Positions 12,561 through 47,714 of a stretch of 64,000 nt of DNA are shown here, piece after piece. Location of the stretch: the NCBI GenBank assembly GCA_000002445.1, contig CP000070.1:2016001-2080000 (forward strand). The letters are read 5' to 3'. The DNA comes from Trypanosoma brucei. Its lineage: Eukaryota. The translations under genes were made by a program, and so were the position numbers. Under the pieces are notes generated by a model. The model did not search any database, was not told where the DNA came from, and saw only the letters and a program-made list of their open reading frames with translations. Each line of letters opens with the position of its first letter. Within the stretch, counting starts at the first letter, position 1.

Positions 12561-15500
12561 TTAAGCAATATTTACACCCCGCCCGTACATGAGCTTCCCC
12601 AGACTGCCATTGCCCAACCGCTGAAAAGAGCAACCATCGTGCCCCGCATATTCATTTTTCTTTCCTTTACTGCAGCGGCTGCTGTCACTAATGTTATTAC
12701 TATTATTATTATTGTTATTCTTAATGCAACTGCGAGCACCGACACTGCTCCTTTTGCTGCTGCTAGCTATGCTACAATAACCGCTATTGGGATTGTTGCT
12801 ACCGCTGTTGTTATTCCCACCACTCGATTTGGTGCTGGCATTACTGTTACTAAAGTACGACAAACTTCCGGGCTTACTGCTAGCGATACGCTCCAAACTC
12901 CACGCACGTCTGCGTGTTTTAATATTTGTTTCAGTGCAAGGCAGCGTTGGGTTGGTTTGCGTATACGAAAAGGGACGTGCATTCACCAACGGCACACTCC
13001 GTAGCGCGTTGGGCGCTTTGAGATAAAAGGCCCGCGATATACGAGCGTCCCGACACATGTTCTCCTTTGATCCCTGACCGAAGAGACTAATACCTGGACC
13101 CGACTTGCGTTTCCTTTCCGAACTTCCGCGCGACTTGGCCAGCAATGACGTTGTTGACAGCGATCGGCCTCCCGATGGTTTGCCATTAGTTGCTGATGCC
13201 GTTTGCCGTATTTGGCATGTAACGTTAGTGCCCGATGCAGCGCGTACTGCAGTGTTATTTTCACTTTCTTTCGGACATGAGCGTTCCGGTGGGTCAACAG
13301 CAGGGGCATTCACAGGCCGGGGGAGAATTTTTGGACCCATGGAGTCTGCACAAACAACCATAGTGTCGCAACGTATTGCCCTCTCACTACCCTGCGTTCG
13401 GCAGAAATTCAGCACAGGGGCCGCAGCTTTTTTCTCACTCCTCCCCTGTTTCCCTAACTCAACCTCCTTGAGATGTGTTTGCCACGTCACGGAGACCTCA
13501 TTTGATGGCTCCGGTGAGGGACTTCCTTCACCACATGTCAGATACGAGCACCGCGTGCTGAAGGACCGCAATAATCCACGAATTTGATGCTTTCCCTGTT
13601 GTTCTAAAGGGGGTACCGCTCCAGCCACTGCTGTGAAGAACTCCGTGGACACCTGTGGCGAGCGAGCGGATGGAGAACGACTGCTTAACGCATCTTCATC
13701 AACATCCAACTCGCTTTTCCCCCCTGCCATTTGTCCTGATGGAAGAACATCACAGTTGATGGCGGATTTCCCCTGTGCCGAATTAGCAGACTGTGTGGAC
13801 ACCGTAGTTAGCGTAGAAAGTGATACGGTAAAACGGAAGGACGAAGCGTTACGAATGCTAGTACGACTTCTCTGCCGTTTCTCCGCGTATGTTCCATAAC
13901 CTGTTTCGCCGATATCAGTACGGGACTTTCCACTTCTTTTTGAGGTGACTTCCCGCGGCCCCTTCATTGCAGACGAGACGCCCACCTGCAAGTCACGGAC
14001 GTGCATGGAGTCAGTAGAGTTACCCCAATCCTCATTAACAGATGTCCCGCTATTCATTTCAACTAAATGCCCACCGGAGAATGTTGCCGGCACCCATGAC
14101 TTGTTCTTCCTACGGAAACTGCTCCCCCTTTTCCCCATAGGGTAATGTGCAGTTTTTGCACTCTCCTCGTCACCATATGGGGTGTTCACCCGCCGAATCT
14201 CCTCTCCTTCACAGCGACCGGCTACGCTTGCCGCATCTGTTGCCATCGCTATTGGTTCCTTGTCCGTTGTAGTTTGCCACCAGCCTAAACCATTTTTTGC
14301 ACCACGCGTTGGGTTGCACAAGGCGGCCCACATTTCCCTTTCCCGTCCCTCCTCATCCGGTGACATAGTTCTGCGTCGTCTATTGTTCTTTTTCCTTCTA
14401 CAACCTTCTCCATATTCTTTCTTCACAGGGTATATTGGTTCATTTTCATGAACATCATTCTGTTTGGCGGTTGAACTACGTCCCAAGCGACAGGGTGGTG
14501 TTTTTGGTAATTTTCGCAACGCTTTTTTGTGAGTCAGTCGTCGTTTCTTTTGCATACTGGCGGCAGCGACTTTGGACGGCGTTGTGTGCGTAAAATCCCC
14601 CTTTCCTTCCGTTTGTTTCTCTCCTTGCGGTTGCTGCTTCTTACTAGAGGCTTTCCCTAACTGTGGGCCACCGCGGGGCTTGCGTGTCACACGAGCAGCA
14701 TTTCTCTTTTTGCATTTCGTCGTGTGGGACACGTTGTGTCTGGCCACCACTTTTCGCCGACGACTACCAACAGCCCAACTTAGTTTTGTGGGGGAGTGCG
14801 ACGTGACGGCCTTTTCCAACCGCCTCCTGCTCACTTCTAACATAGATAATGGTAAGGGCCTTACCTTGGGGACACTGTCTCCTTCCGCTCTGGGTGCTAT
14901 TTCAACAACGTCGTCGCTGAAACTAACACAAATGAGGTCCGATCGCTCGAAACGAGATGCCACGGTAGTCTGCGGTTCCACCTGTGCGATGGGCGTACCT
15001 TCTGTTTCAGTCACTACGCGACTCATAGCGGATGCCATCGTGGTAATAACGGGTGCTACCGTCGTTTTTGGCGTTGCTGTTGGTGTAGTTGCCGTTGTGT
15101 CCGACACCGTTTTCACCGCACCCGACTTGCCCTTTTTTGTGTGAGTAGGCCGCCGGCCAAGATTAACTTTAGAGCAAAGTGGCTGCAGCGATGGCACACC
15201 TTCGGGCATGGGGGTATGCCCGCGCTTAGGCTTTTCTTCCATCCACAACTTAAGCTTACCGGAGGCTGTACGTGCCTTTACTGCCACGTCGCCTTGACCG
15301 TTGCCGAGTGTATCACGACTTCGCTGTTGCAATGCCGCTCCGGCGAGACCCTTTTTCGATTCCTGGCGTGACAGTGGTGCTGCCGTCGATGTGTGTTTTT
15401 TCGTTGCTGCTACATGGAGTGAAGTTGGTACTCTTCTGCTGTTGCACCGTGAAAACGGTGAGGTATGCGCTAAATTTGGTGTCGAGTGGTATTTTTGAAA

Positions 15501-16457
15501 CCTCCGCGTTGGCGCCTCCATCCGGCAAGCTCCAGGGTTTGTTCCGCTGGACGAAACCCTGCGTATGCCCTGTGTAAGTGAACGCTTAAAGATGGACTTC
15601 GGCGCAGGCCCACACTGTTGTTCCTTCACTTTCATGGGGGACATGCGTGAGGCCTCGGAATGAGACAACGCACCGCGACTCACGTGCGAACCAGTGGTTA
15701 CACTACGAACAAATCGCTGAAGTTCAGCTACATCGATTTTCCTACGGTTTGGTGGGGAGCACGTGCGTGATTCCTTCGTGATAACACTGCTTCCCTTATT
15801 ATTTTCCTTGTTGAACCTATTAACACTGTTCGTCCGCGACATATTACCCTTTTCACATATGTTCCGTCTTGTGTGACCCTTTTGTTCACTGGGCGTCGAC
15901 CCATCCTCCACAGCACCGCTTGCCCCAGTCTCAACCACACTCTTTTTGCCTTTTTTCATGACCTTATCTGATGTGCCAGCATGTGATGAAACCGAACTCT
16001 GTTGCGACTGTTTCGCGTTCCGCTGAGTCTGCACAAATATTTTTGTGTTTGAAGGGTCGTAATGGATTCCCTCACGCAACGACGCCACTTCTGATGCATC
16101 TGCACGATCACTTCCCAAGTCAAACAGATGGTCAAAGCGCCCACCATCAACTAAACTAGCAGCGGGAACATCAACAATAGTAAGCGGTATCGGATGCGTT
16201 GGTAGCCGCTTCGGAGAACGCTTACTATATTCACTGGCATCAGCGGTAAGTTCAGAGACACCACTCACATCAGGGTCATTCAGGCCACCCTGCCATTCAC
16301 ATTCAGCTACCATCCTTTTGAGGTAAGCAAGCGACATACAAGGAAACTTTACCCGTGAGTTTGTAGTGATCCGCTGCACTGTTGGTGCCCTATTTTTGAC
16401 TCTTCTTTGTTTTGTAGTCCCCTCTATCGTGGACACACCTTGCTTTCCACTCAACAA
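12561..16457 (-). CDS. hypothetical protein, large Ser/Thr/Arg/Lys-rich basic protein (1298 aa)
   Basis: Uninterrupted 3.9 kb minus-strand ORF with a biased Ser/Thr/basic, low-complexity composition and no recognisable catalytic motif. Its first 53 codons lie inside duplicated block A. Confidence 0.5.
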   Translation of the reverse strand: MLSGKQGVSTIEGTTKQRRVKNRAPTVQRITTNSRVKFPCMSLAYLKRMVAECEWQGGLNDPDVSGVSELTADASEYSKRSPKRLPTHPIPLTIVDVPAASLVDGGRFDHLFDLGSDRADASEVASLREGIHYDPSNTKIFVQTQRNAKQSQQSSVSSHAGTSDKVMKKGKKSVVETGASGAVEDGSTPSEQKGHTRRNICEKGNMSRTNSVNRFNKENNKGSSVITKESRTCSPPNRRKIDVAELQRFVRSVTTGSHVSRGALSHSEASRMSPMKVKEQQCGPAPKSIFKRSLTQGIRRVSSSGTNPGACRMEAPTRRFQKYHSTPNLAHTSPFSRCNSRRVPTSLHVAATKKHTSTAAPLSRQESKKGLAGAALQQRSRDTLGNGQGDVAVKARTASGKLKLWMEEKPKRGHTPMPEGVPSLQPLCSKVNLGRRPTHTKKGKSGAVKTVSDTTATTPTATPKTTVAPVITTMASAMSRVVTETEGTPIAQVEPQTTVASRFERSDLICVSFSDDVVEIAPRAEGDSVPKVRPLPLSMLEVSRRRLEKAVTSHSPTKLSWAVGSRRRKVVARHNVSHTTKCKKRNAARVTRKPRGGPQLGKASSKKQQPQGEKQTEGKGDFTHTTPSKVAAASMQKKRRLTHKKALRKLPKTPPCRLGRSSTAKQNDVHENEPIYPVKKEYGEGCRRKKNNRRRRTMSPDEEGREREMWAALCNPTRGAKNGLGWWQTTTDKEPIAMATDAASVAGRCEGEEIRRVNTPYGDEESAKTAHYPMGKRGSSFRRKNKSWVPATFSGGHLVEMNSGTSVNEDWGNSTDSMHVRDLQVGVSSAMKGPREVTSKRSGKSRTDIGETGYGTYAEKRQRSRTSIRNASSFRFTVSLSTLTTVSTQSANSAQGKSAINCDVLPSGQMAGGKSELDVDEDALSSRSPSARSPQVSTEFFTAVAGAVPPLEQQGKHQIRGLLRSFSTRCSYLTCGEGSPSPEPSNEVSVTWQTHLKEVELGKQGRSEKKAAAPVLNFCRTQGSERAIRCDTMVVCADSMGPKILPRPVNAPAVDPPERSCPKESENNTAVRAASGTNVTCQIRQTASATNGKPSGGRSLSTTSLLAKSRGSSERKRKSGPGISLFGQGSKENMCRDARISRAFYLKAPNALRSVPLVNARPFSYTQTNPTLPCTETNIKTRRRAWSLERIASSKPGSLSYFSNSNASTKSSGGNNNSGSNNPNSGYCSIASSSKRSSVGARSCIKNNNNNNSNNISDSSRCSKGKKNEYAGHDGCSFQRLGNGSLGKLMYGRGVNIA

Positions 16458-19237
16458 CTACGGTGTATCTACCGCAGTGGCGGCGCAGCACACATCAACC
16501 AAAGAATCAGAGAGAAGAGAATGTGTGACAGTAGTGAATGTGGAATGAAGGGGAAGTTTGACAACAACAACAGTGAAATATTACACATGTAAAACAGTTT
16601 GCGAGTAGCCCTGTTGTGGAAAGAAAAGAGGGTACACCGCCCCACACAACACGATATGTCAGCACGCAGTGCAACGGGGAGGGGAATCCGAATAACACTA
16701 CAACGGAAGCACATCACGTGCAATGACAAATATCATCCTTGATGAAACAGGTGACGGTAACATCTCCTCACTTTTCCATAGGAGTACTGTCTCGTTTACT
16801 CATCTTCCACTTGCTCACTTCGATATTAAGATGTGTGAGAAAACCAACCCAACCCAAGGGCAGCATTTCAGTCTCCTTCACAATGACTATCCATCCCACA
16901 ACGCGCCGCTTTTCCATCCCGAAGTCCGGAAGATCGCCGTTACTTCGTAGTGCTTATTGTGCCAACTCCTCACCACCGCAACAGATAATGTGTAAAACGA
17001 TGCCAAGGAAGAACCAACAGAGGTGTAGCGAAGTAAATTGACACACCCAAGCACAAACATATAGCAATTAGGATCAGCTGACGGTATGGCAAACCAAGGG
17101 ACCATGGCTGCCACCAACACACGTCAACTCGTTACCAACCGTGACGATTCTTAGCGGACTCGAGCACCACGACAGGCGTACGCACTGTGTGGATCTTCGG
17201 CGGTATCGGCATGTGGTCGCAGACAATCTCCTTGCAGTCAGTGAGTGTGCATGGGACACCGATTATATCATCCAAGCGTATTGAGCCACACCGTTCCAGC
17301 AGTAACCTCCCAATGGCCTTTTGGGACGCCAGCTTCTTGAGGCCCTCCGCTGCAATAGGGATGGCGCAGAGTCTCAGAACGCAAGACCGGATGGCACTTT
17401 TGTCGGCACTGATTTTTTCGAGTAACTCGCAGTCACTCAAACTCAACTCCTCGAGAGTCTTTATGGCAAATACAGGATCAACGTGTGTCAAGTGCTTGGC
17501 GTTTCTCACACATAGCGACCGCAGTGCTTCACACCGCGAGAGGTCCTCAATTTCCTTATTCCCCACGAAGGGACCCTCGAGTATCAACTTGCTGAGCTCC
17601 GGCAGCGAGGCGATGGCAGCAAATTCGGAGACGCTGCGCAGCCCACAAATATACAATTCCCTCAGTTTCTTCGGCGATGCCAACTTCGATACGTTCAGCT
17701 CCCCACCACAGTACCAGAGTCGAAGGCACGTGAGATTCGTGGCCGACTCACAAATGGTTTCCAATGTGGTGGTGGAAGCAGACCCGCTACACAACCCGAG
17801 GGTCTCCAATGGAGATCTCCGCCCGGGGAACACCACCTCGGGTGAGTCATCCAAAAACAGCCTGCGTAGATTCCGCAGGGATGCGATGGCCTTAGAAGTC
17901 TTTTTACTGAGTGTCGAGCAGAATCGCAGGTCGACTTCGCTCAGGGATGTGCTGTACAGCTTTCCCACACATTCATCAGTCACCGCAGTAGCCCGCAATA
18001 GGAGCTTCTCCAGCGGTGGCGCACAGTCCACAGGGCCAACAATTCTTGCACGACTGCATAGGCTGAGGTCCAACACCTTCAGCGACCTCAGGTTGGTCAA
18101 TGGGCTTATGTCAACAATTTCCTTGTTCCCGCTGAGGATCACCTCCTCGAGCGTAGTGAATGCTGATAGTGCCTTCACATCGGCATCCGTTACACTGCTA
18201 TTCGTCAGGCGCAACACACGAAGTAACGGCAGCTCGGTTCCCCACTCGAACGTAGAACGAACACCCACATTGTCAAGACATAACTCCACCAATTTCTTGC
18301 AGTTTTTCAGTGAGATCTTGCTATGCACCGCCGAGCAATCCCCAAGCCGCAGCACCTTTAACGACACACAATCATGAAAATACTCGACAAGTCCATTGCC
18401 AACGATAAGGGAGGTTCCGGTAATAACCAATCGTCTGAGAATTGGCCACGTCAGTGTGTCAGTGAAGGCATTCATGTTGGGACAGTTCTCAATGGTGATG
18501 CTATCGAGAAACAGGGCATTCCCTAAGAATTTGGCATCCTGTAACATCGAGATATTCTTCATTACAATCTCACGCAGTTTCTCAAGGGACTCCACACCTT
18601 TCTCCCATTCGTTATCCAGCCGTGTACCATGCAGGATAAGCGTTTGGAGGCAGGGGAATTTACCGATACACGACATGTTGGCTACAGCACCCGGCCCGAT
18701 TTCCAACAGGTATAACCCTTGATTGCTGAGTAACTCGAGGTCCAGGCGTCCACAACACCGTCGGAGGCGCAATTCTCCCACATCGCCCTTTAGTGATGAG
18801 AGTTCTTTCAGATTAAACCCCGGGTCGTCGACAACAATCACGTCTGCGGGGTCATCACATTCAAGTGGTGCGTTCTTATCGCAGTTTATAACTGCCTTCC
18901 ACGTGACTGGTCGTCTCCGATATTCATCATACTCTTCCCGCAGCTTTTCGTGTTCCGCTGCCACCATATGGACATGATTGCGCAGTTCTGCGACCTCCTC
19001 CCGCAGCTTCTCCACATCTTCATTGGTTACCATTTGTTCCCCACCTTCAGAGCCGAGTCGCTTCACCATCGCGCCTCCCCCTTTGCCTTTTGTATTTTTG
19101 GTGAGGGAAAGAGTGTGGATTGTGTAAAAAGGTGGAAAGGGCGATTTGAGTGACGTAAGAAAGGAAGGCTTGGGGAAGAAGTGGAGCTGCACACCCAGCG
19201 ACTTTGGACAATACAAACGGGTGTAACACTGTGCTGA
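16297..19237. repeat. segmental duplication block A, copy 1 (LRR gene, its 3' flank, and the 5' end of the downstream gene)
   Basis: About 2.94 kb, near-identical to 43918-46858. The six-frame ORFs are pairwise identical (16366..16548 = 43987..44169, 17187..18377 = 44808..45998, etc., with single substitutions). Homology ends abruptly at ...gtgtaacactgtgctga (19237 / 46858). Confidence 0.85.
17132..19069 (-). CDS. leucine-rich repeat protein, cysteine-containing LRR type (LRRP/ESAG8-like), copy 1
   Basis: About 20 tandem 23-25-aa LRRs of the L..L.L..C..ITD..L form (e.g. LRSLKVLDLSLCSRARIVGPVDCAPPLEKLLL, LTNSSVTDADVKALSAFTTLEEVILSGNKEIVDISPLTNL), preceded by a coiled coil (EDVEKLREEVAELRNHVHMVAAEHEKLREEYDEYRR). 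The track ORF extends to 19363. Start is placed at MVKRLGSE (19069) because the upstream ORF differs between the two copies and reads like a pyrimidine-rich 5'UTR. Confidence 0.65.
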   Translation of the reverse strand: MVKRLGSEGGEQMVTNEDVEKLREEVAELRNHVHMVAAEHEKLREEYDEYRRRPVTWKAVINCDKNAPLECDDPADVIVVDDPGFNLKELSSLKGDVGELRLRRCCGRLDLELLSNQGLYLLEIGPGAVANMSCIGKFPCLQTLILHGTRLDNEWEKGVESLEKLREIVMKNISMLQDAKFLGNALFLDSITIENCPNMNAFTDTLTWPILRRLVITGTSLIVGNGLVEYFHDCVSLKVLRLGDCSAVHSKISLKNCKKLVELCLDNVGVRSTFEWGTELPLLRVLRLTNSSVTDADVKALSAFTTLEEVILSGNKEIVDISPLTNLRSLKVLDLSLCSRARIVGPVDCAPPLEKLLLRATAVTDECVGKLYSTSLSEVDLRFCSTLSKKTSKAIASLRNLRRLFLDDSPEVVFPGRRSPLETLGLCSGSASTTTLETICESATNLTCLRLWYCGGELNVSKLASPKKLRELYICGLRSVSEFAAIASLPELSKLILEGPFVGNKEIEDLSRCEALRSLCVRNAKHLTHVDPVFAIKTLEELSLSDCELLEKISADKSAIRSCVLRLCAIPIAAEGLKKLASQKAIGRLLLERCGSIRLDDIIGVPCTLTDCKEIVCDHMPIPPKIHTVRTPVVVLESAKNRHGW

Positions 19238-20789
19238 CAAGGCATGATTATGTGTCTCATTTCTCAAGTCTACAAGGTGGTTGCTGGTGATGGCATGGTG
19301 TCTATGCGACTGGTCGATTCGTATTCGTTGAGCCATACGCTGACCCATAGATATATAGTTCATTTTCGGTACTTTACCCCGTGGACCAGTGCAGGAGGTT
19401 ACGCACGCGGCGGATAGTGAGATGATTCGTTCTTAGTCAATAATATGTGAAGGAGAGGGGCAAGATAGGATGGGCTGACAGAAGACAGTTTGGGGTGCGT
19501 CACTCAGCAGGTTGGGGATACCTTACTTCACCCTTTACGGTGTCAGTGTTGATGGCTGAACGCCGTTCTGCCTGCCTCTTCTCCTTTTTCTTTTCTCATA
19601 TCTTTTAGCTTCTGGGGTCTAAGCTGCCATGCACTTCCGACTTCTGAACCGCCCATCCACCCATTTTCCCCGCCCCATCCCTTTAACTCGTTTTATACGT
19701 CGGCAAGACATGCTAATGATGAGCACGGCTTATTTCGTTACTCATTTTTGTGCGCTCACTTGTGCGCCACCTCCTGGCGGGTGACCACGCATGAGTGAAT
19801 TGTACGTTTCCTTTCAGTTCCAGTGGAGGTAATATCTTAATGAAAGGGAAGGAGGAGACCGAGAGGGTAAGAGAACGTAAAACATTGGTGAGGTTTGTTC
19901 AGGACGTAAGGAATTGGTAAGGCAAACAGAGAAAAGAAATAGAGATGACGCTGACATCATTAGGAGTAGCTTAGAAGCTCACGTGCCACCTAATGAGCTT
20001 TCCATTTCCCTTCTAAACAGTTTATCTTTTACGAAGCGGGGCGTGATCTACGAGGAAGGCATTGGCATACGATGTTCCTTTCCTCTTTTCCCCTCCTTTC
20101 AAATGCATAAATAATGCCAACGAGCAAAAAGGATTGACTGGGGGGAGGGGGGAGGGATGGAAGGGGGAACAACAAAAGACCGCTATGGATTAGCCAATAG
20201 CGGTGCCCTGAAGGCAATGTTGGGAATTGATGTCATTTCCTTTCATTTGTGTATAATTCCCATACATTACTGTCAATATGTTGGTTTTACCATCGACTGT
20301 TCTCTTTTCTTAACGGGCACAATCTATTCCATTTCACTCCTTTTCATAACCACTCCCCGCCGCTTCCTTTCACATTATTCTTTTCGATGACCCCTCTTCG
20401 GCTTTTCCCTCGTTAAAGCGTTAAATGCCTCCCCCCTCCCCCTTAGCATTGCCCCATTCCTTCCTCTCTTTCTCTTTCTTTTCCGCATTGCTTCGTGTTT
20501 GACTCCTCAACGTTGACAATAATGATAATGGCCAACAGCAGCATCAACAGGAGGAGTTGAGCAGTTGCGTAAATTCATTTCCCCTTCCCTCCGGCCACCA
20601 TTCACCCTCCTTTTTTTTCCCTTTGCTTTTGTTCCCCAGCACAAGTGGGACAAAACTCCCTCCCCATTACCATCACCCACACGCATATTCTCCTCTCAAT
20701 AATATGGAAATTAACATACAAATGTATAAATATAAAATATATGGGTGTAAATATATACGGGGTCATGAAAGGGAACAGGTTTGCAAAAA

Positions 20790-20791
<2 letters not shown>

Positions 20792-20840
<49 letters not shown>
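20792..20840. repeat. (CA)n microsatellite, about 25 units
   Basis: Direct reading: acacacac... across 20792-20840. Confidence 0.9.
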
Positions 20841-20847
<7 letters not shown>

Positions 20848-21477
20848 GCAAAAAGGAGAAAATAGACTAGGTAAAAGGAAACAACTTTTTTATGTTTGGT
20901 TTCATTTTAAAAGGAAAGTGAGTAAAAGAGGAAAGCACCGAGATTGCGTAAAACCGCACCCCGCCACGTGAGTGATACATAAAAAAAAAGTTATGAAGGA
21001 TCTCATATTACCTTCAACGTCAGTGTGGGTAAATAGTAATAATATTAACAATAACAATAAGAGTGATCAAAACAACATTGACAGTAGAAAAAAAGGTATC
21101 ACAGTCGTGGTAGCATAAAATAAGTAAAAGGTAAATAATAACAAAAATAGCAACAGCAAAATTCTTAAAAAAAACTGGATGGGCACAGTGCGCGCATTGG
21201 CCACCGGAGGGAGAAGAAGAAAAGGGACTGGGTATTAAACTGAAGGGGTGCACACATACGCATAAACGAGGAGACACGCACATGGAAGCTCCAAAAAGGA
21301 GGAAAGGATAAAACAACAACAACAACAACAACAACAACAAAATTTTACCCATGAGCAAGTGTGAGAGCTTTCCTGTCTGTTTTATGTTGCAGCAGCAGTA
21401 GCATTAGCATTAGCAGCAACTGCACGTCCATACGTATGATCAAGCATATATACATATTTATTCATTCGGTCATATAA

Positions 21478-21508
<31 letters not shown>

Positions 21509-22135
21509 TATTATGTACGTACGTAAACATGCCTGGAGCGCAGGAACGGAACTCATTAAGTCAGAGGGGGGGGGGGAAGCAGAAAATATCAAATAAAAAA
21601 GAAAAAAAAAGCAACAGTCACATAACAAACCAAACACAAAATAAAGGCTCACAGACTTCCACCCCCTGCTATACCGTCTCGGCTACTGCTACTCGTTCCT
21701 TTCCAGCCGTCCAACCAGTTGAACCGCAAACCAAAAACAAACAAACAGAAACAAAAAGAGAAAGATGTGTGTGTAAGCTATTTCCCCTTTCCCTGCAACA
21801 CCTCTAATCCATATGCACCAACACACACACAAAAGCACAAAAAACAGGGGGAAAAAACGTTGGTAATCCTTTAGTAAGAAACTCAGCGTAAAGCGGAAAG
21901 TGATTAAGGTGCGCGGAAAGGAAAATAATCAACATCCAAGAATGAAGAAGGAAAACAACAACAACAGCAACGCCACCTACCCAATGCGCGAAGCCTAGGT
22001 CAGTATGAAACGATGCGCAGAGTGGAAAAGAAGACAAAAGGCTGGTGATGAAAGGAAATGAAAAATCCAAGAAACCAACGGTGGTGTGCGGCTGCCGTCT
22101 CCATAACACATTAATGCACATGCGAACGGTGTTAG

Positions 22136-22460
22136 CTCCCACGGAACAAGAAGACAACAAGGTATTCGCGCCGGTCCTGTAATGCGTCTCCACTGCTCAA
22201 ATGGCGTCTCACACATGACCCAGTGCAATCGTGTGCACATGAACAACTGGTGTCAATCAGATATTCAGAAGGAAAAATCAAGAGGCCCCGCTTCAGAGGT
22301 TGGTAAATAATATTTTTCATAAGGATGTCTCGCAACTCTCGGACTGTGTGGCGCGGCTGCGGCGTAGAGGAACAGTCATGCATGCAGGACAATCAGCTAC
22401 GGGAATGAATACCTCCTCTACGGGTGCTGGCAAGCATCTTACTGATGGGACAAACATGCA
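22136..22460. repeat. duplication block B, copy 1 (kinesin last ~48 codons plus ~180 bp 3' flank)
   Basis: About 325 bp, near-identical to 43585-43910. ORFs 22132..22392(-) and 43582..43845(-) encode the same 86 aa, and 21804..22193(-) and 43431..43646(-) share their first 18 aa. Homology starts at ctcccacggaacaagaag. Confidence 0.8.
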
Positions 22461-24749
22461 TAGAAGCCGCGCAGCAAATGCCCAGAAAGCGAAGCTCAGT
22501 GAAGTAAATACCGTAACTCTATAGATACGCCTGGCGCGAGCACGCATTCGTGGCTCGCTTGCAGGTGTACGTCCCACCTGTCCTTCATTGACACCGTCTT
22601 TACGCCGCAGACAGAGGTGCGGCACTATTCGACTCAGGGAAACAGGTGGTGAAGAGCACAGTGAATCCTGAAAACCTCCCAGGAACGTATCATCCGATTC
22701 CCTTTCGTGGTGCAGCGTACTCAAACGGGAAGAGCACAATCCAACAATCCGTGGATCTCTGGCTGGCGTATCTGAAAGCTCGGGGCTGTATGAAGTGGCG
22801 CCAAAACTTCCTAACCGACTACTCATTGTTGAAAGCTGCTTTTCTAGCCACTTGTTACGTACAGTTAGCCTCCTTACTTTTGCCAGTAGTTCGGCCTTCG
22901 TCTCCGTACGACCCACGACAGGTCGGTTCTGCACCCTCTTGGCGCATTTAGCAAACTGTAGTGTTGAAAGGGTTTCGGTTGCGTCCTTTAGATCCGGGGA
23001 TATGGTGCAGAGGAGCGCTGTCACGGCATTCCCGCCGATACTTTCCTGCAACAACCGTGTGAGTTTAGAGTCACGATACGGTATGTGCACGGCATCCCCT
23101 CCCTTAGGGTTCGTGGTGAGTTTCCTAATAACATTCCCCAGCAGAGTTAAGGAAAGATTAATGTGTCGTGCCTCTTCTAGTCGCTTTCCGTTAGCCTTCG
23201 TATCGGCTACCCTCTCGGAACCGGCCAAGTCCACCAGAGTCGCTAATGATCGAATTTCTGTTATTACTAATGGCGGCTGCGGTGCTAAACCCAACGCGCC
23301 CTGACCCTTATTCACCACAGGTGCCTCCCGTTGCCGTAATGCAATGTAAAAGAATAGATGAGAGCGCCCACTCCGCTGGTTCACTGCTGTCGAACCGACA
23401 TGACGCTGCACTGCTGCCCATTTGAGAACATGTAGCGCTTCCTCGGCATCACGCACCGGATGCCATGAAAGGCCTTCCACAACAACTCCCACATTTGCAA
23501 CGTCCCGTATTTTCAGTGTGGCACTGGACGCGGTGGATTTGGCGCGACGGGAGGCCGTACCAACTGCGACCCGATTCTGACACACTACCCCTTTTGCATC
23601 GATTGATTGGCCCCCAGCCCCCGTTTCATTGGTTGTGTCGCAGCCCTTTTTGGAAGTTTTGGGTTTCAAAATAAACTGCAATAAATCGTACATGTCTTCC
23701 TTGTAGATTTCCATTGCACTCACTTCCACTGCATAACCCCACTCGCGTGCAGGTTGTGAGGCCTTGCCCCCAGACATTGCTTCCGTTTTTCTCATCTGAC
23801 TTCGCTCCTGCTCTGTGGCCGTGGTTGCCGAGGACGTTTGATGTAAACCCTTGTTTTCCAACCGAGCAAACAACTCCTGCAGCATTCGCGGTAATATCCC
23901 CGCCTCATCCGGGTCAGCCAAGCGCTCAGGCAAGCCACCCGCAGGTCCAAGCATTGTATGAGTTTTACCGCTTCCGCTCTGTCCATAGCAGAGGATAGTT
24001 CCATTGAATCCTTCCAGCACATTCTGCAGAATAGGGCGACCGACGCGGTCCATTATTTCGTTCTGCGTGGTGTCACCTCCGAGTACGGCATCGAAGGCGA
24101 AGAAGCTGCCGCGCTCCTCTATTTCCCGCTGCTGCGAATTGCTGTCGAAGGGACTCCCAGAGGCGAAACCCTGAGCCTTCGGCTGCACACTAAACTCTTT
24201 CGGAGGGGGCACGTATTCAATTAAACCGTCTTCCTTGTGCAGCCGGCAACAGGTTGGTTTTACAGAGCCACGGAGTGCTGGTCGTACACGAACCGAGACG
24301 TTGATAGTTCCGCGCTTCATAGTGAACACCGCTGGGGTGTTTTTCGCGCCAACTAAAAGAGACGCCGCCTCTGTCTTTGGTGTTACCTGCGTATTTAGGC
24401 CGTTAACAGCGGCACCCCCGTACATTGTTTGGTCACTTTTCGTGAAGTCTGTTACTCCTGTTTTATCTGGGAGCTGCTCTACCTCAGGTGCAACGTGTAA
24501 ACTCAAGCGTCCCCCAAGAGAACTCAAATTCGACGGCAGGGAGCAAAAAGCCGGTTTGCTGAGGCGCGGCGTGTAGTTATCAGGTGCTGGTGTCTCTTCA
24601 AGGAATGAGGAGCTTCCAGGGACACTGTGAGGCCGGTGAAGAAAGTGGCTTTTCTCTAGAAGATCTGCACCAACGGAGGGGCAACGCTCTATTGTCCCAA
24701 GGGAGGGTTCTGGCATGGGAATAGTCGAATTTAAATGAATCCCATTCAT
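22317..24749 (-). CDS. kinesin motor protein
   Basis: Motor-domain signatures are present: P-loop GQSGSGKTHTM, switch I NQRSGRSH and switch II DLAGSE, plus LLGNVI and a neck/coiled coil (LLAKVRRLTVRNKWLEKQL). The motor is central and has loop insertions. The last 48 codons and 3' flank lie in repeat segment B. Confidence 0.8.
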   Translation of the reverse strand: MNGIHLNSTIPMPEPSLGTIERCPSVGADLLEKSHFLHRPHSVPGSSSFLEETPAPDNYTPRLSKPAFCSLPSNLSSLGGRLSLHVAPEVEQLPDKTGVTDFTKSDQTMYGGAAVNGLNTQVTPKTEAASLLVGAKNTPAVFTMKRGTINVSVRVRPALRGSVKPTCCRLHKEDGLIEYVPPPKEFSVQPKAQGFASGSPFDSNSQQREIEERGSFFAFDAVLGGDTTQNEIMDRVGRPILQNVLEGFNGTILCYGQSGSGKTHTMLGPAGGLPERLADPDEAGILPRMLQELFARLENKGLHQTSSATTATEQERSQMRKTEAMSGGKASQPAREWGYAVEVSAMEIYKEDMYDLLQFILKPKTSKKGCDTTNETGAGGQSIDAKGVVCQNRVAVGTASRRAKSTASSATLKIRDVANVGVVVEGLSWHPVRDAEEALHVLKWAAVQRHVGSTAVNQRSGRSHLFFYIALRQREAPVVNKGQGALGLAPQPPLVITEIRSLATLVDLAGSERVADTKANGKRLEEARHINLSLTLLGNVIRKLTTNPKGGDAVHIPYRDSKLTRLLQESIGGNAVTALLCTISPDLKDATETLSTLQFAKCAKRVQNRPVVGRTETKAELLAKVRRLTVRNKWLEKQLSTMSSRLGSFGATSYSPELSDTPARDPRIVGLCSSRLSTLHHERESDDTFLGGFQDSLCSSPPVSLSRIVPHLCLRRKDGVNEGQVGRTPASEPRMRARARRIYRVTVFTSLSFAFWAFAARLLCMFVPSVRCLPAPVEEVFIPVADCPACMTVPLRRSRATQSESCETSL

Positions 24750-42567: not shown

Positions 42568-43240
42568 ACCGGCGGCAGCGCTGACAGCGTCCTAAGCGGG
42601 AATGTCGCAACAGGCTGAACAGAAAACACTAGTTTGCGTAAGCCCGTCCACTCGGTCCCCTTCTCTCTCTTTTTTTTTTAAATCTTAAAAAGAGAATAAT
42701 TCCTACTATCTTCTCCCCCTTACCTATCACAGCGTCTCCTGAGTCAGGGCCTCTACCGTGTCTTACTTTATTACAAACTCAACTTATTCACCTACAACCC
42801 AAATGACACTACCACCGCAACTTTCCTTTATTTTTCAAAAGCTTTCCTTATTTATAATATTTGCTACCGTGTTCACTAGTTACTACGCTCCCGCGCTTGA
42901 GCGACTGCAAGTCCTGCGTATCCCGATCACCCCTTAAGCGAGTGCTAGAGAAGGAACCGAGGAAAATAAATATTTGTGAATTTGTACACACACAAGTGCA
43001 GACGGACGTAAGGACAAGACCGGATATGTTGGCGTGTAGTGGCAAAAAAAATAAATAAATAAAAATAATGAAACCCACCCGTCCCATCTTGTTACGGCCG
43101 GAGTGGACGTTACCCTTGTGACAGTGACGCGCGCAACAAATGGAAACACAAACCGTGCTGCACTATGAAGAGAAGAGGAAGCATACCGCGATCCGTCCCC
43201 CCTTTTCCCAATGGGGAAAAGGTGTGAGAATTGAGTGGAT

Positions 43241-43248
43241 GGAAAACG
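43241..43248 (-). terminator. RNA polymerase III T-run terminator immediately 3' of tRNA-Ala
   Basis: On the minus strand the tRNA 3' end is followed directly by CGTTTTCC. A run of 4 or more T residues right after a tRNA is the canonical Pol III terminator. Confidence 0.5.
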
Positions 43249-43320
43249 TGGACGAGTAGGGGATCAAACCCTAGGCCTTCCGTATGCGAAACGGATGCTC
43301 TACCACTGAGCTACACGCCC
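43249..43320 (-). tRNA. tRNA-Ala: tRNA-Ala (anticodon CGC)
   Basis: Folded by hand from the reverse complement: GGGCGTG TA GCTC AGTGGTA GAGC A TCCGT TTCGCAT ACGGA AGGCC TAGGG TTTGATC CCCTA CTCGTCC A. Acceptor stem pairs at 6 of 7 positions and includes the G3:U70 Ala identity pair. D-stem GCTC/GAGC. Anticodon stem TCCGT/ACGGA with loop TTCGCAT (anticodon CGC). T-stem TAGGG/CCCTA with loop TTTGATC. Discriminator A73. No encoded CCA. Confidence 0.8.
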
Positions 43321-43584
43321 CGTAGTGCAATCGGTGCGCTGCATTCGTTTACCGTTGCGTGGCTACAAGCCATAACCGCCACAAGCCACAACATAAAGTG
43401 CGGGGGAGACACAACCGATGCTATCCATCATTACCACCTCCATTCCTTCCCCACCCATCTTGGTTTTGCACACGTGGCTTCTACGGAAGGCTTTTCCACC
43501 ACATATACGGCTGCATTTGCATCGAAAGCATGCGTTGTTGGGTACCAGGCAGCTGCGTATTCTCCAGTTAGTAATGCAATTTCA

Positions 43585-43910
43585 CAAACTCCCACGGAAC
43601 AAGAAGACAACAAGGTATTCGCGCCGGTCCTGTAATGTGTCTCCACTGCTCAAATGGCGTCTCACACATGACCCAGTGCAATCGTGTGCACATGAACAAC
43701 TGGTGTCAATCAGATATTCAGAAGGAAAAATCAAGAGGCCCCGCTTCAGGGGTTGGTAAATAATATTTTTCATAAGGATGTCTCGCAACTCTCGGACTGT
43801 GTGGCGCGGCTGCGGCGTAGAGGAACAGTCATGCATGCAGGACAATCAGCTACGGGAATGAATACCTCCTCTACGGGTGCTGGCAAGCATCTTACTGATA
43901 GGACAAACAT
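43585..43910. repeat. duplication block B, copy 2 (fused to block A copy 2)
   Basis: See copy 1. In this copy the kinesin-derived codons are detached from any motor domain. Confidence 0.8.
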
Positions 43911-44078
43911 GCGTGGAACACATTCAGCTACCATCCTTTTGAGGTAAGCAAGCGACATACAAGGAAACTTTACCCGTGAGTTTGTAGTGATCCACTGCAC
44001 TGTTGGTGCCCTATTTTTGACTCTTCTTTGTTTTGTAGTCCCCTCTATCGTGGACACACCTTGCTTTCCACTCAACAA
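43770..44078 (-). pseudogene. chimeric gene fragment: first 53 codons of the 1298-aa Ser-rich gene fused in frame to the last ~49 codons of the kinesin
   Basis: The 102-aa ORF starts MLSGKQGVSTIEGTTKQRRVKNRAPTVQ.ITTNSRVKFPCMSLAYLKRMVAEC, which matches the N-terminus of the CDS at 16457. It ends ...FVPSVRCLPAPVEEVFIPVADCPACMTVPLRRSRATQSESCETSL, which is identical to the C-terminus of the kinesin CDS ending at 22317. The fusion lies exactly at the B|A duplication junction (about 43910-43918). Confidence 0.55.
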
Positions 44079-46858
44079 CTACGGTGTATCTACCGCAGTG
44101 GCGGCGCAGCACACATCAACCAAAGAATCAGAGAGAAGAGAATGTGTGACAGTAGTGAATGTGGAATGAAGGGGAAGTTTGACAACAACAACAGTGAAAT
44201 ATTACACATGTAAAACAGTTTGCGAGTAGCCCTGTTGTGGAAAGAAAAGAGGGTACACCGCCCCACACAACACGATATGTCAGCACGCAGTGCAACGGGG
44301 AGGGGAATCCGAATAGCACTACAACGGAAGCACATCACGTGCAATGACAAATATCATCCTTGATGAAACAGGTGACGGTAACATCTCCTCACTTTTCCAT
44401 AGGAGTACTGTCTCGTTTACTCATCTTCCACTTGCTCACTTCGATATTAAGATGTGTGAGAAAACCAACCCAACCCAAGGGCAGCATTTCAGTCTCCTTC
44501 ACAATGACTGTCCATCCCACATCACGCCGCTTTTCCATCCCGAAGTCCGGAAGATCTCCGTTACTTCGTAGTGCTTATTGTGCCAACTCCTCACCACCGC
44601 AACAGATAATGTGTAAAACGATGCCAAGGAAGAACCAACAGAGGTGTAGCGAAGTAAATTGACACACCCAAGCACAAACATATAGCAATTAGGATCAGCT
44701 GACGGTATGGCAAACCAAGGGACCATGGCTGCCACCAACACACGTCAACTCGTTACCAACCGTGACGATTCTTAGCGGACTCGAGCACCACGACAGGCGT
44801 ACGCACTGTGTGGATCTTCGGCGGTATCGGCATGTGGTCGCAGACAATCTCCTTGCAGTCAGTGAGTGTGCATGGGACACCGATTATATCATCCAAGCGT
44901 ATTGAGCCACACCGTTCCAGCAGTAACTTCCCAATGGCCTTTTGGGACGCCAGCTTCTTGAGGCCCTCCGCTGCAATAGGGATGGCGCAGAGTCTCAGAA
45001 CGCAAGACCGGATGGCACTTTTGTCGGCACTGATTTTTTCGAGTAACTCGCAGTCACTCAAACTCAACTCCTCGAGAGTCTTTATGGCAAATACAGGATC
45101 AACGTGTGTCAAGTGCTTGGCGTTTCTCACACATAGCGACCGCAGTGCTTCACACCGCGAGAGGTCTTCAATTTCCTTATTCCCCACGAAGGGACCCTCG
45201 AGTATCAACTTGCTGAGCTCCGGCAGCGAGGCGATGGCAGCAAATTCGGAGACGCTGCGCAGCCCACAAATATACAATTCCCTCAGTTTCTTCGGCGATG
45301 CCAACTTCGATACGTTCAGCTCCCCACCACAGTACCAGAGTCGAAGGCACGTGAGATTCGTGGCCGACTCACAAATGGTTTCCAATGTGGTGGTGGAAGC
45401 AGACCCGCTACACAACCCGAGGGTCTCCAATGGAGATCTCCGCCCGGGGAACACCACCTCGGGTGAGTCATCCAAAAACAGCCTGCGTAGATTCCGCAGG
45501 GATGCGATGTCCTTAGAAGTCTTTTTACTGAGTGTCGAGCAGAATCGCAGGTCGACTTCGCTCAGGGATGTGCTGTACAGCTTTCCCACACATTCATCAG
45601 TCACCGCAGTAGCCCGCAATAGGAGCTTCTCCAGCGGTGGCGCACAGTCCACAGGGCCAACAATTCTTGCACGACTGCATAGGCTGAGGTCCAACACCTT
45701 CAGCGACCTCAGGTTGGTCAATGGGCTTATGTCAACAATTTCCTTGTTCCCGCTGAGGATCACCTCCTCGAGCGTAGTGAATGCTGATAGTGCCTTCACA
45801 TCGGCATCCGTTACGCCGCTATTCGTCAGGCGCAACACACGAAGTAACGGCAGCTCGGTTCCCCACTCGAACGTAGAACGAACACCCACATTGTCAAGAC
45901 ATAACTCCACCAATTTCTTGCAGTTTTTCAGTGAGATCTTGCTATGCACCGCCGAGCAATCCCCAAGCCGCAGCACCTTTAACGACACACAATCATGAAA
46001 ATACTCGACAAGTCCATTGCCAACGATAAGGGAGGTTCCGGTAATAACCAATCGTCTGAGAATTGGCCACGTCAGTGTGTCAGTGAAGGCATTCATGTTG
46101 GGACAGTTCTCAATGGTGATGCTATCGAGAAACAGGGCATTCCCTAAGAATTTGGCATCCTGTAACATCGAGATATTCTTCATTACAATCTCACGCAGTT
46201 TCTCAAGGGACTCCACACCTTTCTCCCATTCGTTATCCAGCCGTGTACCATGCAGGATAAGCGTTTGGAGGCAGGGGAATTTACCGATACACGACATGTT
46301 GGCTACAGCACCCGGCCCGATTTCCAACAGGTATAACCCTTGATTGTTGAGTAGCTCGAGGTCCAGGCGTCCACAACACCGTCGGAGGCGCAATTCTCCC
46401 ACATCGCCCTTTAGTGATGAGAGTTCTTTCAGATTAAACCCCGGGTCGTCGACAACAATCACGTCTGCGGGGTCATCACATTCAAGTGGTGCGTTCTTAT
46501 CGCAGTTTATAACTGCCTTCCACGTGACTGGTCGTCTCCGATATTCATCATACTCTTCCCGCAGCTTTTCGTGTTCCGCTGCCACCATATGGACATGATT
46601 GCGCAGTTCTGCGACCTCCTCCCGCAGCTTCTCCACATCTTCATTGGTTACCATTTGTTCCTCACCTTCAGAGCGGCTTCGCTTCGCCATCGCGCCTCCC
46701 CCTTTGCCTTTTGTATTTTTGGTGAGGGAAAGAGTGTGGATTGTGTAAAAAGGTGGAAAGGGCGATTTGAGTGACGTAAGAAAGGAAGGCTTGGGGAAGA
46801 AGTGGAGCTGCACACCCAGCGACTTTGGACAATACAAACGGGTGTAACACTGTGCTGA
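43918..46858. repeat. segmental duplication block A, copy 2
   Basis: See copy 1. Preceded directly by block B copy 2. The junction sequence is ...acaaacatgc|gtggaa|cacattcagctaccatcc... Confidence 0.85.
44753..46690 (-). CDS. leucine-rich repeat protein, cysteine-containing LRR type (LRRP/ESAG8-like), copy 2
   Basis: About 99 % amino-acid identity to copy 1 over 646 aa, with a handful of substitutions (MAKRSRSEGEEQ vs MVKRLGSEGGEQ, SLRNL, SVTPL). Intact reading frame. Start at 46690 (cat at 46688-46690). The track ORF extends to 46963 into copy-specific upstream sequence. Confidence 0.65.
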   Translation of the reverse strand: MAKRSRSEGEEQMVTNEDVEKLREEVAELRNHVHMVAAEHEKLREEYDEYRRRPVTWKAVINCDKNAPLECDDPADVIVVDDPGFNLKELSSLKGDVGELRLRRCCGRLDLELLNNQGLYLLEIGPGAVANMSCIGKFPCLQTLILHGTRLDNEWEKGVESLEKLREIVMKNISMLQDAKFLGNALFLDSITIENCPNMNAFTDTLTWPILRRLVITGTSLIVGNGLVEYFHDCVSLKVLRLGDCSAVHSKISLKNCKKLVELCLDNVGVRSTFEWGTELPLLRVLRLTNSGVTDADVKALSAFTTLEEVILSGNKEIVDISPLTNLRSLKVLDLSLCSRARIVGPVDCAPPLEKLLLRATAVTDECVGKLYSTSLSEVDLRFCSTLSKKTSKDIASLRNLRRLFLDDSPEVVFPGRRSPLETLGLCSGSASTTTLETICESATNLTCLRLWYCGGELNVSKLASPKKLRELYICGLRSVSEFAAIASLPELSKLILEGPFVGNKEIEDLSRCEALRSLCVRNAKHLTHVDPVFAIKTLEELSLSDCELLEKISADKSAIRSCVLRLCAIPIAAEGLKKLASQKAIGKLLLERCGSIRLDDIIGVPCTLTDCKEIVCDHMPIPPKIHTVRTPVVVLESAKNRHGW

Positions 46859-47714
46859 GAATGCTTTCACCTTCTCTCTGCTTAACTCTCCCCATGCATT
46901 TGGCCGTGAGCACCAGATATCCCTTCGGATGCTGAGAATGGCCTCTGAGGAACTGTGCACCACTTCTTGGCAAGCGTAGATTCCACCGGAAGTTATTTAG
47001 TGGTTGCGCAAAAATAGGATTGGCGAATGTTTCCGTAGATTGATGCTTTGTTCCCCAGATCTTTCTCTAGTATAAAGTATGTTGAGCACTTACAAATTCG
47101 TACGTTATGTCAAAACCTTCTCATATTTGGTAATTCAGGAGCTTTTTACAAAAAATCTCATTTACCAACACTGTTTTGCATTTTGCAGAGAAGGCAAATA
47201 ACCGCAAAAAATTCTACGCAGACCACATGAGCTTTGGTGGGGCGTAATTTGTACATGTAAAACGTGTACATGGAGTTTACAGTTGTTAAACACATGCACT
47301 GGAAAGCCTCAAACAATAGGAGCAGCAGTAACAAGTAGACGTGCTTGTAATGATGGATGAAAAAGATGTGCTTGTAGCGGAGTGTTGCCGCCCAGTAAAG
47401 CAAGTACCGCCCAAAGATTAATGACCCCCCTTCCCCGAAGATACCGGTGTCGTTACCGCCAAGCGAACCAGTTAAAGCAAAAACAAAAAAAACACAAAAA
47501 AGCGAAGTAAGGCGTACATGCTTACGCTTGTAAAGGGATATAATACATAAAAAATGTAAAAAAGAAGTATGGTAAGTTAAAGGAGGCGGGGGGGGGGAGA
47601 GGGAAAGGAACAAAGGACTGGGTAAATCGTTGTCGTAACAGCTTCTTGTGGTAACTGAGGGCGGGATAACTCAAGAAAAGCAACCTTTTAAAAACTCATC
47701 GGGGTATCTCTGCA

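What the first reader, a model, noticed from the sequence alone, without database searches (positions are those of the whole stretch)
43770..44078. In-frame chimeric ORF at the duplication junction
A 102-aa open frame fuses two gene fragments exactly at the B|A junction, with no stop codon across it. Its first 53 residues match the start of the 1298-aa Ser-rich gene. Its last ~49 residues are identical to the kinesin C-terminus.

Block A includes the intergenic region upstream of the Ser-rich gene. In trypanosomes, polyadenylation of the upstream mRNA is coupled to trans-splicing of the downstream one. The copy has therefore probably imported a functional splice-acceptor/poly-Y region. That would give the duplicated LRRP a proper 3' end and could produce a trans-spliced chimeric transcript.

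This is either a young pseudogene or a tiny novel fusion peptide.
Basis: partly seen in the sequence, partly recalled or inferred. Interest (0 to 1): 0.5.

Follow-up and report, generated by a model that had tools for sequence, protein, structure and literature searches.

The report
Chimeric short ORF at duplication scar
A small gene-fragment fusion left at the seam of a 3.3-kb duplication on Trypanosoma brucei chromosome 7 lies on an mRNA that published maps show as spliced and polyadenylated, but it looks like an unselected by-product rather than a new functional protein.

Summary
The window is T. brucei TREU927 chromosome 7 (window coordinate = chr7_v4 coordinate minus 2,016,000). The open frame at 43770..44078 (-) exists and crosses the junction in frame. 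It starts at TTG, not ATG. Its first 40 codons are the duplicated 5'UTR of Tb927.7.7100. The real ORF is 62 codons (ATG 43958): 13 codons of Tb927.7.7100 fused to the last 48 codons of kinesin Tb927.7.7120.

The seam joins 16298 to 22465 bluntly, inside a 3,270-bp composite insertion that carries the LRRP copy Tb927.7.7180. The same junction is present in T. b. gambiense DAL972.

- Kolev 2010 lists transcript Tb7.NT.107, which starts at window 44089, directly after an AG that follows the duplicated polypyrimidine tract, and ends at 43038.
- Ericson 2014 lists exactly this 62-aa ORF.
- Vasquez 2014 lists it as a ribosome-footprint candidate CDS.

No peptides were found in any of these data sets. 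The footprints and 5' reads are confounded by multi-mapping to the two parent genes. DAL972 has lost the AUG (GTG).

Verdict: a real but ordinary duplication scar on a by-product mRNA, with no evidence of selection for a peptide.

The parts
43770..44078 (-). It has a TTG at its 5' end. Codons 1-40 are duplicated 5'UTR of Tb927.7.7100.
43770..43958 (-). The ATG-initiated 62-codon chimeric ORF plus stop (MSLAYLKRMVAEC|V|PRMFVLSV...TSL). It equals Tb7.NT.107_2 [132-317] and candidate CDS getorf_Tb927_07_v4_-_22182 (chr7 2059770-2059958).
43038..44089 (-). Published SL-bearing, polyadenylated transcript Tb7.NT.107 (chr7_v4 2060089->2059038, 1,051 nt, 4.39 RNA/cell). Its first AUG is nt 132.
44090..44091 (-). 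AG splice acceptor. It is the first AG downstream of the polypyrimidine tract and is paralogous to 16469-16470, upstream of Tb927.7.7100.
44122..44180 (-). Duplicated polypyrimidine-rich tract (75-85% C+T in 20-nt windows), identical to the parent tract.
44222..44222 (-). Inferred poly(A) site of the LRRP copy, paralogous to the mapped parent site at 16601 (chr7 2032601, 3'UTR 531 nt).
   Evidence: for the parent site; identity of the flanks; the copy site itself was not mapped
43919..46858 (-). Block A' (copy of 16298-19237). It holds the LRRP splice signals, the LRRP CDS, its 3'UTR, the intergenic region, and the 5'UTR plus first 13 codons and 1 nt of Tb927.7.7100.
43589..43918 (-). Block B' (copy of 22136-22465). 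It holds the last 48 codons plus 2 nt of kinesin Tb927.7.7120, the stop codon, and 181 nt of the kinesin 3'UTR.
44753..46690 (-). LRRP copy Tb927.7.7180 (645 aa, AAZ12779.1/XP_846338.1). The 5' boundary of its published coordinates is 46707.
43248..43320 (-). tRNA-Ala(CGC) gene. It lies 268 bp downstream of the insertion's distal breakpoint, on the same strand, inside the mapped span of Tb7.NT.107.
12561..16337 (-). Parent 1: Ser-rich hypothetical protein Tb927.7.7100 (intact; ATG at 16337; the 5' boundary of its published coordinates is 16468).
22317..24749 (-). Parent 2: kinesin Tb927.7.7120 (intact, 810 aa, AAZ12773.1).
17132..19069 (-). Parent LRRP Tb927.7.7110. The mapped splice site at 19086 lies inside the annotated 743-aa ORF.

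Best explanation
The ORF is the seam of a composite segmental duplication on T. brucei chromosome 7.

A 3,270-bp insert lies between Tb927.7.7190 and CYC4 (Tb927.7.7170). It has two parts. The first is 2,940 bp holding LRRP Tb927.7.7110, its flanking RNA-processing signals, and the 5'UTR plus first 13 codons of Tb927.7.7100. The second is 330 bp holding the last 48 codons and proximal 3'UTR of kinesin Tb927.7.7120. The two parts are joined bluntly and, by chance, in frame.

RNA polymerase II reads through the whole polycistron. The insert brought along the polypyrimidine tract and AG acceptor of Tb927.7.7100. That signal therefore (i) directs polyadenylation of the LRRP copy at its native site (inferred) and (ii) yields a separate SL-capped mRNA, Tb7.NT.107 (published mapping). 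This mRNA is polyadenylated upstream of the CYC4 acceptor.

The first AUG of that mRNA is the Tb927.7.7100 start codon. Scanning ribosomes should therefore initiate there and read 62 codons into the kinesin tail (inferred; consistent with published footprints).

Nothing indicates that the peptide is stable or selected. I regard it as a neutral by-product, an expressed pseudogene-like scar.
For: Identity of the locus:
- Three window proteins are exactly AAZ12772.1, AAZ12773.1 and AAZ12779.1 of TREU927.
- Gene IDs come from PMC1914216, PMC3957582 and PMC3008729.
- The coordinate offset of 2,016,000 comes from the Tb927.7.7110 row of Kolev Table S1.

Duplication:
- Blocks; breakpoints.
- Both parent genes are intact.
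- The same junction occurs in the independent DAL972 assembly.

RNA:
- Tb7.NT.107 spans 2060089->2059038 in Kolev Table S7. That table counts only transcripts with both SL and poly(A).
- Its start falls on the base after the first AG downstream of the polypyrimidine tract.
- The paralogous base, 16468, is the 5' boundary given for Tb927.7.7100.
- RNA covers 98% (BF) and 92% (PF) of the transcript, including the unique 3' half.

Translation:
- The first ATG of the transcript is nt 132.
- The ORF is listed as Tb7.NT.107_2.
- It is a candidate CDS with 45x footprint coverage over 100% of its length.

Lack of constraint:
- DAL972 has ATG->GTG at 43958.
- The only two copy-specific changes (43958 and 43915) are both nonsynonymous.
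- No peptides were found in the MS sets mined by Kolev, Ericson or Vasquez.
- The peptide is absent from a 15-billion-protein collection.
Against: - The first 501 nt of Tb7.NT.107 (44089-43589) are entirely duplicated sequence. Kolev allowed 2 mismatches in 28 nt and measured abundance in the 500 nt after the splice site.
- Vasquez used bowtie2 local mode. Identical multi-copy ORFs all receive coverage in their table. SL reads, RNA abundance and footprints over the ORF could therefore derive partly or wholly from Tb927.7.7100 and Tb927.7.7120.
- I saw no read that demonstrably spans 43913-43918.
- The frame stays open in DAL972, with a second in-frame AUG at codon 9, so weak selection for a shorter peptide is not excluded.
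- The retained tail contains a motif conserved in the T. congolense kinesin.
Confidence: 0.75

Rival explanations
1. Silent relic. The junction is real, but no discrete mRNA or translation arises from it. The published transcript 5' end and footprints are mapping spill-over from the two parent genes. The unique 3' half would be processing debris or a tRNA-associated signal.
For: - All 501 nt downstream of the proposed splice site are 99% identical to parental sequence.
- The mapping policies keep ambiguous reads.
- Footprint coverage of the whole transcript is only 35-40%.
- No peptides were found.
Against: - The acceptor, polypyrimidine tract and surrounding 320 nt are identical to a site treated as the 5' end of Tb927.7.7100. 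From established knowledge of trypanosome trans-splicing, I know of no mechanism that would silence only the copy within a transcribed polycistron.
- RNA covers 92-98% of the 1,051-nt interval, including 551 nt of unique sequence ending at a mapped poly(A) site.
- No other splice site or transcript is listed between the LRRP copy and CYC4.
Confidence: 0.12
2. Functional micropeptide. The 62-aa (or 54-aa) product is made and used, for example as a free copy of the conserved kinesin tail motif that competes for the tail's partner.
For: - The ORF opens at the first AUG of a roughly 4-copy-per-cell mRNA.
- Footprints cover 100% of the ORF.
- The frame stays open in DAL972.
- The retained PAPVEEVF[IV]PV.DCPAC motif is conserved between the T. 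brucei and T. congolense kinesin tails.
Against: - The AUG is lost in DAL972.
- Both copy-specific substitutions are nonsynonymous.
- No MS peptides, predicted TM segment or signal peptide.
- The junction cuts through the hydrophobic segment that precedes the motif.
- Its 'conservation' in Ericson 2014 is explained by the parental kinesin.
- The footprints are confounded by multi-mapping.
Confidence: 0.06
3. Assembly artefact. The permuted A|B seam was created by mis-joining reads in the reference assembly.
For: - The LRRP repeats cause gaps and a probable mis-join in DAL972.
- The T. equiperdum OVI contig stops about 46 bp short of block B'.
Against: - The identical seam, flanked by the same unique sequences on both sides, is present in the separately sequenced DAL972 genome with its own private substitutions.
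- Both LRRP genes are separately annotated, and their expression values differ.
Confidence: 0.02

Closest known systems
Tb7.NT.107 / ORF Tb7.NT.107_2 / getorf_Tb927_07_v4_-_22182 (Kolev 2010 PMC2936537; Ericson 2014 PMC3942054; Vasquez 2014 PMC3973304)
   Same: This is the same object. The transcript coordinates are 2060089-2059038 and the 62-aa sequence is identical.
   Different: In the tables I read, those papers list it only as an unannotated transcript or candidate small CDS. Ericson scored it as 'conserved' because of a T. congolense hit. None of the tables notes that it is a fusion of Tb927.7.7100 and Tb927.7.7120 fragments at a duplication seam. No main text in the searchable library mentions it.
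Chimeric genes formed at segmental-duplication breakpoints (general class; own knowledge, e.g. partial-duplicate fusion genes in Drosophila and primates)
   Same: Two partial copies of intact parent genes are fused in frame. The regulatory or processing signals are inherited from the 5' parent.
   Different: Expression needs no captured promoter here. A duplicated trans-splice acceptor inside a polycistron is enough. The product is very short, and the start codon is not conserved.
Validated T. brucei small proteins from novel transcripts (e.g. Tb11.NT.29, Tb11.NT.28, Tb10.NT.87; Ericson 2014)
   Same: A short ORF opening at the first AUG of a short SL-capped, polyadenylated transcript, with ribosome footprints.
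   Different: Those proteins have MS peptides and RNAi phenotypes, and they are conserved as independent genes. This ORF has none of these.
Coupled polyadenylation/trans-splicing of trypanosome polycistrons (established knowledge; invoked in Kolev 2010)
   Same: The duplicated polypyrimidine tract lies about 130 nt downstream of the expected LRRP poly(A) site and 31-90 nt upstream of the acceptor AG. This is the normal geometry.
   Different: Nothing differs. The locus behaves as the rule predicts.

Membership tests
Chimeric ORF at a segmental-duplication junction | Each half has a longer, intact parental copy elsewhere. | tested here: met
   Block A matches 16298-19237 and block B matches 22136-22465. 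Both parent genes are intact.
Chimeric ORF at a segmental-duplication junction | The reading frame is continuous across the seam. | tested here: met
   13 codons + 1 nt | 2 nt + 48 codons, ending at the kinesin stop codon.
Chimeric ORF at a segmental-duplication junction | The junction is real, i.e. seen in independent sequence. | tested here: met
   Same seam in T. b. gambiense DAL972.
Trans-spliced, polyadenylated trypanosome mRNA | AG acceptor preceded by a polypyrimidine tract. | tested here: met
   AG at 44091-44090 is the first AG after a 75-85% pyrimidine tract.
Trans-spliced, polyadenylated trypanosome mRNA | Experimentally mapped SL addition and poly(A) sites. | tested here: inconclusive
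   Published as Tb7.NT.107, 44089->43038. The 5' 501 nt are duplicated and multi-mapping reads were tolerated. The poly(A) end lies in unique DNA.
Translated small protein (sORF product) | Ribosome footprints attributable to this ORF. | tested here: inconclusive
   45x coverage over 100% of the ORF. Mapping used bowtie2 local mode and identical paralogues all receive reads. The phase statistic of 21.8% lies within the 6.6-33% range of other entries in the part of the table I read, including some with peptide support.
Translated small protein (sORF product) | Peptide evidence. | tested here: not met
   No peptides in Kolev Table S10, Ericson Additional file 3 or Vasquez Table S5.
Translated small protein (sORF product) | Start codon and sequence conserved under purifying selection. 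| tested here: not met
   ATG->GTG in DAL972. The two copy-specific changes are both nonsynonymous. Only two genomes were compared.
Processed pseudogene / retrocopy | Copy limited to mature mRNA sequence, with a poly(A) remnant. | tested here: not met
   The copy includes intergenic DNA, sequence upstream of the LRRP splice site, and parts of three genes in permuted order.
Kinesin | Motor domain (PF00225). | tested here: not met
   Only the last 48 codons are retained. The motor domain maps to residues 202-606 of the parent.

The most novel reading that the evidence does not exclude
The chimeric mRNA yields a stable 54-62-aa peptide. This peptide displays the conserved kinesin Tb927.7.7120 tail motif (PAPVEEVFIPVADCPAC) free of the motor domain and modulates that kinesin's cargo or partner binding. 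It would be a recently born regulatory micropeptide, created solely by duplicating a splice acceptor inside a polycistron.
Probability: 0.05. Interest if true: 0.55.

Novelty: new member of a known kind. Interest (0 to 1): 0.3.

Why it matters
- It is a clean, fully dissectable example of a general consequence of polycistronic genomes. Copying an intergenic splice-acceptor region is enough to create a new capped, polyadenylated mRNA with a ready-made start codon, so duplication scars are expressed by default.
- It explains one entry in the published T. brucei small-proteome and ribosome-profiling candidate lists. The ORF's 'conservation in T. congolense' comes from the parental kinesin tail.
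- It flags that read-based evidence at this locus is confounded by 99% identical paralogous sequence.
- It has no evident medical or mechanistic consequence unless the peptide proves to be functional.

Tried and rejected
- Homology search with the 102-aa frame found nothing.
- Exact-product look-ups found nothing on record for the window's kinesin, the LRRP copy, TREU927 proteins P0059 and P0068, the 62-aa ORF and CYC4. I could therefore not fetch the copy locus from T. evansi, T. equiperdum or Lister 427.
- Ten sequence variants of the peptide are absent from the protein collection.
- Logan contigs L005 and L006 turned out to be RNA-seq contigs of the parent LRRP mRNA, not of the junction.
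- A tblastx self-comparison found no older, diverged duplication around the blocks.
- Rfam found only the tRNA in 42500-47800, so Tb7.NT.107 does not match any known snoRNA or other ncRNA family.
- Siegel 2010 and Jensen 2014 supplements gave nothing: the former has no files held as text and the latter has no hit.
- I initially counted '4 of 4 nonsynonymous' TREU927-DAL972 differences as evidence of relaxed constraint. I withdrew half of that after seeing that two of the four are polymorphisms shared with the parental kinesin.
- I considered a 6-nt filler at the seam and rejected it.
- I considered retroposition and rejected it, because intergenic DNA and a permuted gene order are present.
- The mechanism of the duplication could not be decided. 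The candidates are a fragment of a circular or tandem intermediate of 16298-22465, or replicative template switching. No microhomology is visible at the seam.

Full report
**Where we are.** Three proteins encoded in the window are residue-for-residue identical to T. brucei brucei TREU927 chromosome 7 proteins. They are LRRP AAZ12772.1 (743 aa), kinesin AAZ12773.1 (810 aa) and LRRP AAZ12779.1 (645 aa). The literature gives the gene names:
- CYC4 = Tb927.7.7170 (PMC1914216).
- The two LRRPs = Tb927.7.7110 and Tb927.7.7180 (PMC3957582).
- The kinesin = Tb927.7.7120 (PMC3008729).

Kolev et al. 2010 Table S1 lists the Tb927.7.7110 CDS at chr7_v4 2035363..2033132, which corresponds to window 19363..17132. 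Window coordinate therefore equals chromosome coordinate minus 2,016,000. All genes in the window lie on the minus strand of one polycistron.

**The observation.** The frame 44078->43770 (-) is open for 102 codons.
- Self-BLAST shows two duplicated blocks that abut inside it. Block A is 16298-19237 = 43919-46858 (2,940 bp, 99.4%). Block B is 22136-22459 = 43589-43912 (324 bp, 99.1%).
- In DAL972 the intervening hexamer reads TTCTAC against parental TTCTAT. Block B therefore really runs to 22465, and the seam 16298|22465 is blunt, with no filler and no microhomology.
- The frame ends at the paralogue of the kinesin stop codon.
- The first codon is TTG, not ATG. The first ATG is codon 41 (43958). 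The orthologues of Tb927.7.7100 called in two other genomes start at the paralogous ATG, 16337.
- The real ORF is therefore 62 codons: 13 codons + 1 nt of Tb927.7.7100, then 2 nt + 48 codons of the kinesin tail. Of those 48 residues, 45 equal the TREU927 kinesin.
- An in-frame join has a one-in-three prior.

**Anatomy of the insertion.** Read in the direction of transcription, the 3,270-bp insert contains the following:
- 151 nt upstream of the LRRP splice site. The parent site is mapped at 19086, and the paralogous position 46707 is the 5' boundary used for Tb927.7.7180.
- The LRRP CDS.
- The LRRP 3'UTR, with the parent poly(A) site at 16601 (paralogue 44222).
- The intergenic polypyrimidine tract and AG.
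- The 131-nt 5'UTR and first 13 codons of Tb927.7.7100.
- The last 48 codons and 181 nt of 3'UTR of the kinesin.

The insert sits between Tb927.7.7190 and a tRNA-Ala/CYC4. The two blocks are in permuted order relative to the parent interval. That pattern fits either a fragment of a circular or tandem intermediate of 16298-22465, or replicative template switching. I cannot discriminate between these.

**Independent support for the seam.** The DAL972 (T. b. gambiense) chromosome 7 has the same seam and the same outer breakpoints. This makes an assembly artefact very unlikely, and it dates the event before the brucei/gambiense split.

Comparing parents and copies across four genomes shows that several variants are shared by parent and copy within a strain. 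In DAL972 these are at 44037, 43795 and 43717. The TREU927 copy equals the T. equiperdum OVI parent at 43900 and 43750. High identity therefore reflects concerted evolution or shared polymorphism as well as age. Only two changes are copy-specific:
- 43958 A>G in DAL972, which destroys the AUG.
- 43915 T>C in TREU927, which changes L15 to P.

**RNA evidence (published).**
- Kolev 2010 Table S7 lists novel transcript Tb7.NT.107, chr7 2060089->2059038. This equals window 44089->43038 (1,051 nt, 4.39 RNA/cell). That table admits only RNAs with both SL and poly(A).
- Base 44089 is the base immediately after the first AG (44091-44090) downstream of a 75-85% pyrimidine tract.
- The paralogous base, 16468, is the 5' boundary given for Tb927.7.7100 by Vasquez 2014.
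- Copy and parent are 100% identical from 44315 to 43995.
- Vasquez Table S6 gives RNA at 62 (BF) and 50 (PF) rpkm, covering 98% and 92% of the transcript, including its unique 3' half.

**Translation evidence (published).**
- The transcript's first ATG is nt 132, which is 43958.
- Ericson 2014 lists the ORF verbatim as Tb7.NT.107_2 [132-317].
- Vasquez Table S5 lists it as a candidate CDS: 62 aa, footprint coverage 45.35 per nt, 100% covered, no peptides.
- Ericson placed it among 'conserved' sORFs for a T. congolense hit. That hit is explained by the kinesin tail: the ORF matches residues 795-830 of the T. congolense kinesin at 54% identity, E = 1e-10. Neither a TM segment nor a signal peptide was predicted, and no peptides were found in three MS sets.

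**Caveats.**
- The first 501 nt of the transcript are entirely duplicated DNA.
- Kolev allowed two mismatches in 28 nt and measured abundance in the 500 nt after the splice site.
- Vasquez used bowtie2 local mode, and identical paralogues all receive coverage.
- The 5' reads, the abundance and the footprints can all be contaminated by Tb927.7.7100 and Tb927.7.7120.
- The tRNA inside the transcript may add footprint-sized fragments. This is my inference.
- I have not seen a read that demonstrably spans the seam.

**Interpretation.** The ORF is most likely a duplication scar that is expressed by default. The copied acceptor gives the LRRP copy its native 3' end. It also releases the downstream spacer as an mRNA whose first AUG is the old Tb927.7.7100 start codon. 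Loss of that AUG in DAL972, the absence of peptides and the absence of synonymous-biased change all argue against a selected peptide (confidence about 0.75).

The rivals are a fully silent relic (0.12), a functional tail-mimic micropeptide (0.06) and an assembly artefact (0.02).

**Novelty.** The transcript and the ORF are already in published catalogues. Their chimeric origin is not mentioned in the tables I read or in any searchable main text. This is an ordinary member of a known class, chimeric fragments at duplication breakpoints. It has modest didactic value for polycistronic genomes and serves as a correction to a 'conserved sORF' call.

Noticed in passing
window 43248-43320 (-): A tRNA-Ala(CGC) gene lies on the coding strand inside a Pol II polycistron, within the mapped span of Tb7.NT.107. 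It is 268 bp downstream of the insertion's distal breakpoint. Whether tRNA proximity favoured the insertion, or adds footprint-sized reads, is unknown.
   Followed up: partly
L002 9833-15596 and L004 14485-14584 (T. b. gambiense DAL972): DAL972 has 100-N gaps in both LRRP loci. After the gap at the copy locus, the contig begins with parent-type upstream sequence (window 20378-19238) and a parent-type LRRP N-terminus, and then runs into the seam. This is either a chimeric contig, with a crossover between 19041 and 18196, or a genuine extra unit (A|B-X-A|B), which would favour a tandem or circular origin.
   Followed up: partly
window 17132-19363 (-): The annotated 743-aa Tb927.7.7110 ORF is over-extended. 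The mapped splice site at 19086 lies inside it (Kolev Table S1). The likely start is the ATG at 19069, giving 645 aa like the copy. The two LRRPs differ in a cluster of N-terminal residues (MVKRLGSEGG vs MAKRSRSEGE).
   Followed up: partly
L005, L006 (Logan ERR7929157, ERR7929156) = window 19836-16603: These RNA-seq contigs fuse the 3' end of the spliced leader (CAGTTTCTGTACTATATTG) to window 19836, the 5' end of Tb7.NT.106. They then continue through the whole parent LRRP to its poly(A) region. This suggests an alternative long-5'UTR LRRP mRNA that contains Tb7.NT.106.
   Followed up: partly
window 43589-44089 vs 16298-16468 and 22136-22465; L001-L004: Parent and copy share strain-specific variants (copy/parent positions 44037/16416, 43795/22342, 43717/22264 in DAL972). 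This points to ectopic gene conversion or trans-locus polymorphism between sites 21-28 kb apart.
   Followed up: partly
L001 (T. equiperdum OVI contig CZPT02000081.1): By my extrapolation, the 98-kb contig ends about 46 bp before the position of block B'. That is what a repeat-induced assembly break would give. It hints that the insertion is present there too, but does not prove it.
   Followed up: no
window 22317-22460 (-); P0002 residues 795-830: The kinesin C-terminal tail motif PAPVEEVF[IV]PV.DCPAC[ML] is conserved between T. brucei and T. congolense. It is absent from the T. cruzi, T. grayi and T. theileri homologues retrieved. The residues preceding it are polymorphic among T. brucei strains (C/R, P/L) and there is an S/F polymorphism downstream of it.
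   Followed up: partly
window 53343-54665 (-), inside the 2,395-aa ORF 52788-59975: A diverged repeat array with a 111-bp register (37 aa) lies in a very large protein that has only a faint SHIPPO-repeat hit.
   Followed up: no
L004 about 14585-14960 (window 18693-18336): The DAL972 parent-locus sequence next to the gap is strongly divergent from all other LRRP copies over about 350 bp. It is probably low-quality or misplaced sequence.
   Followed up: no
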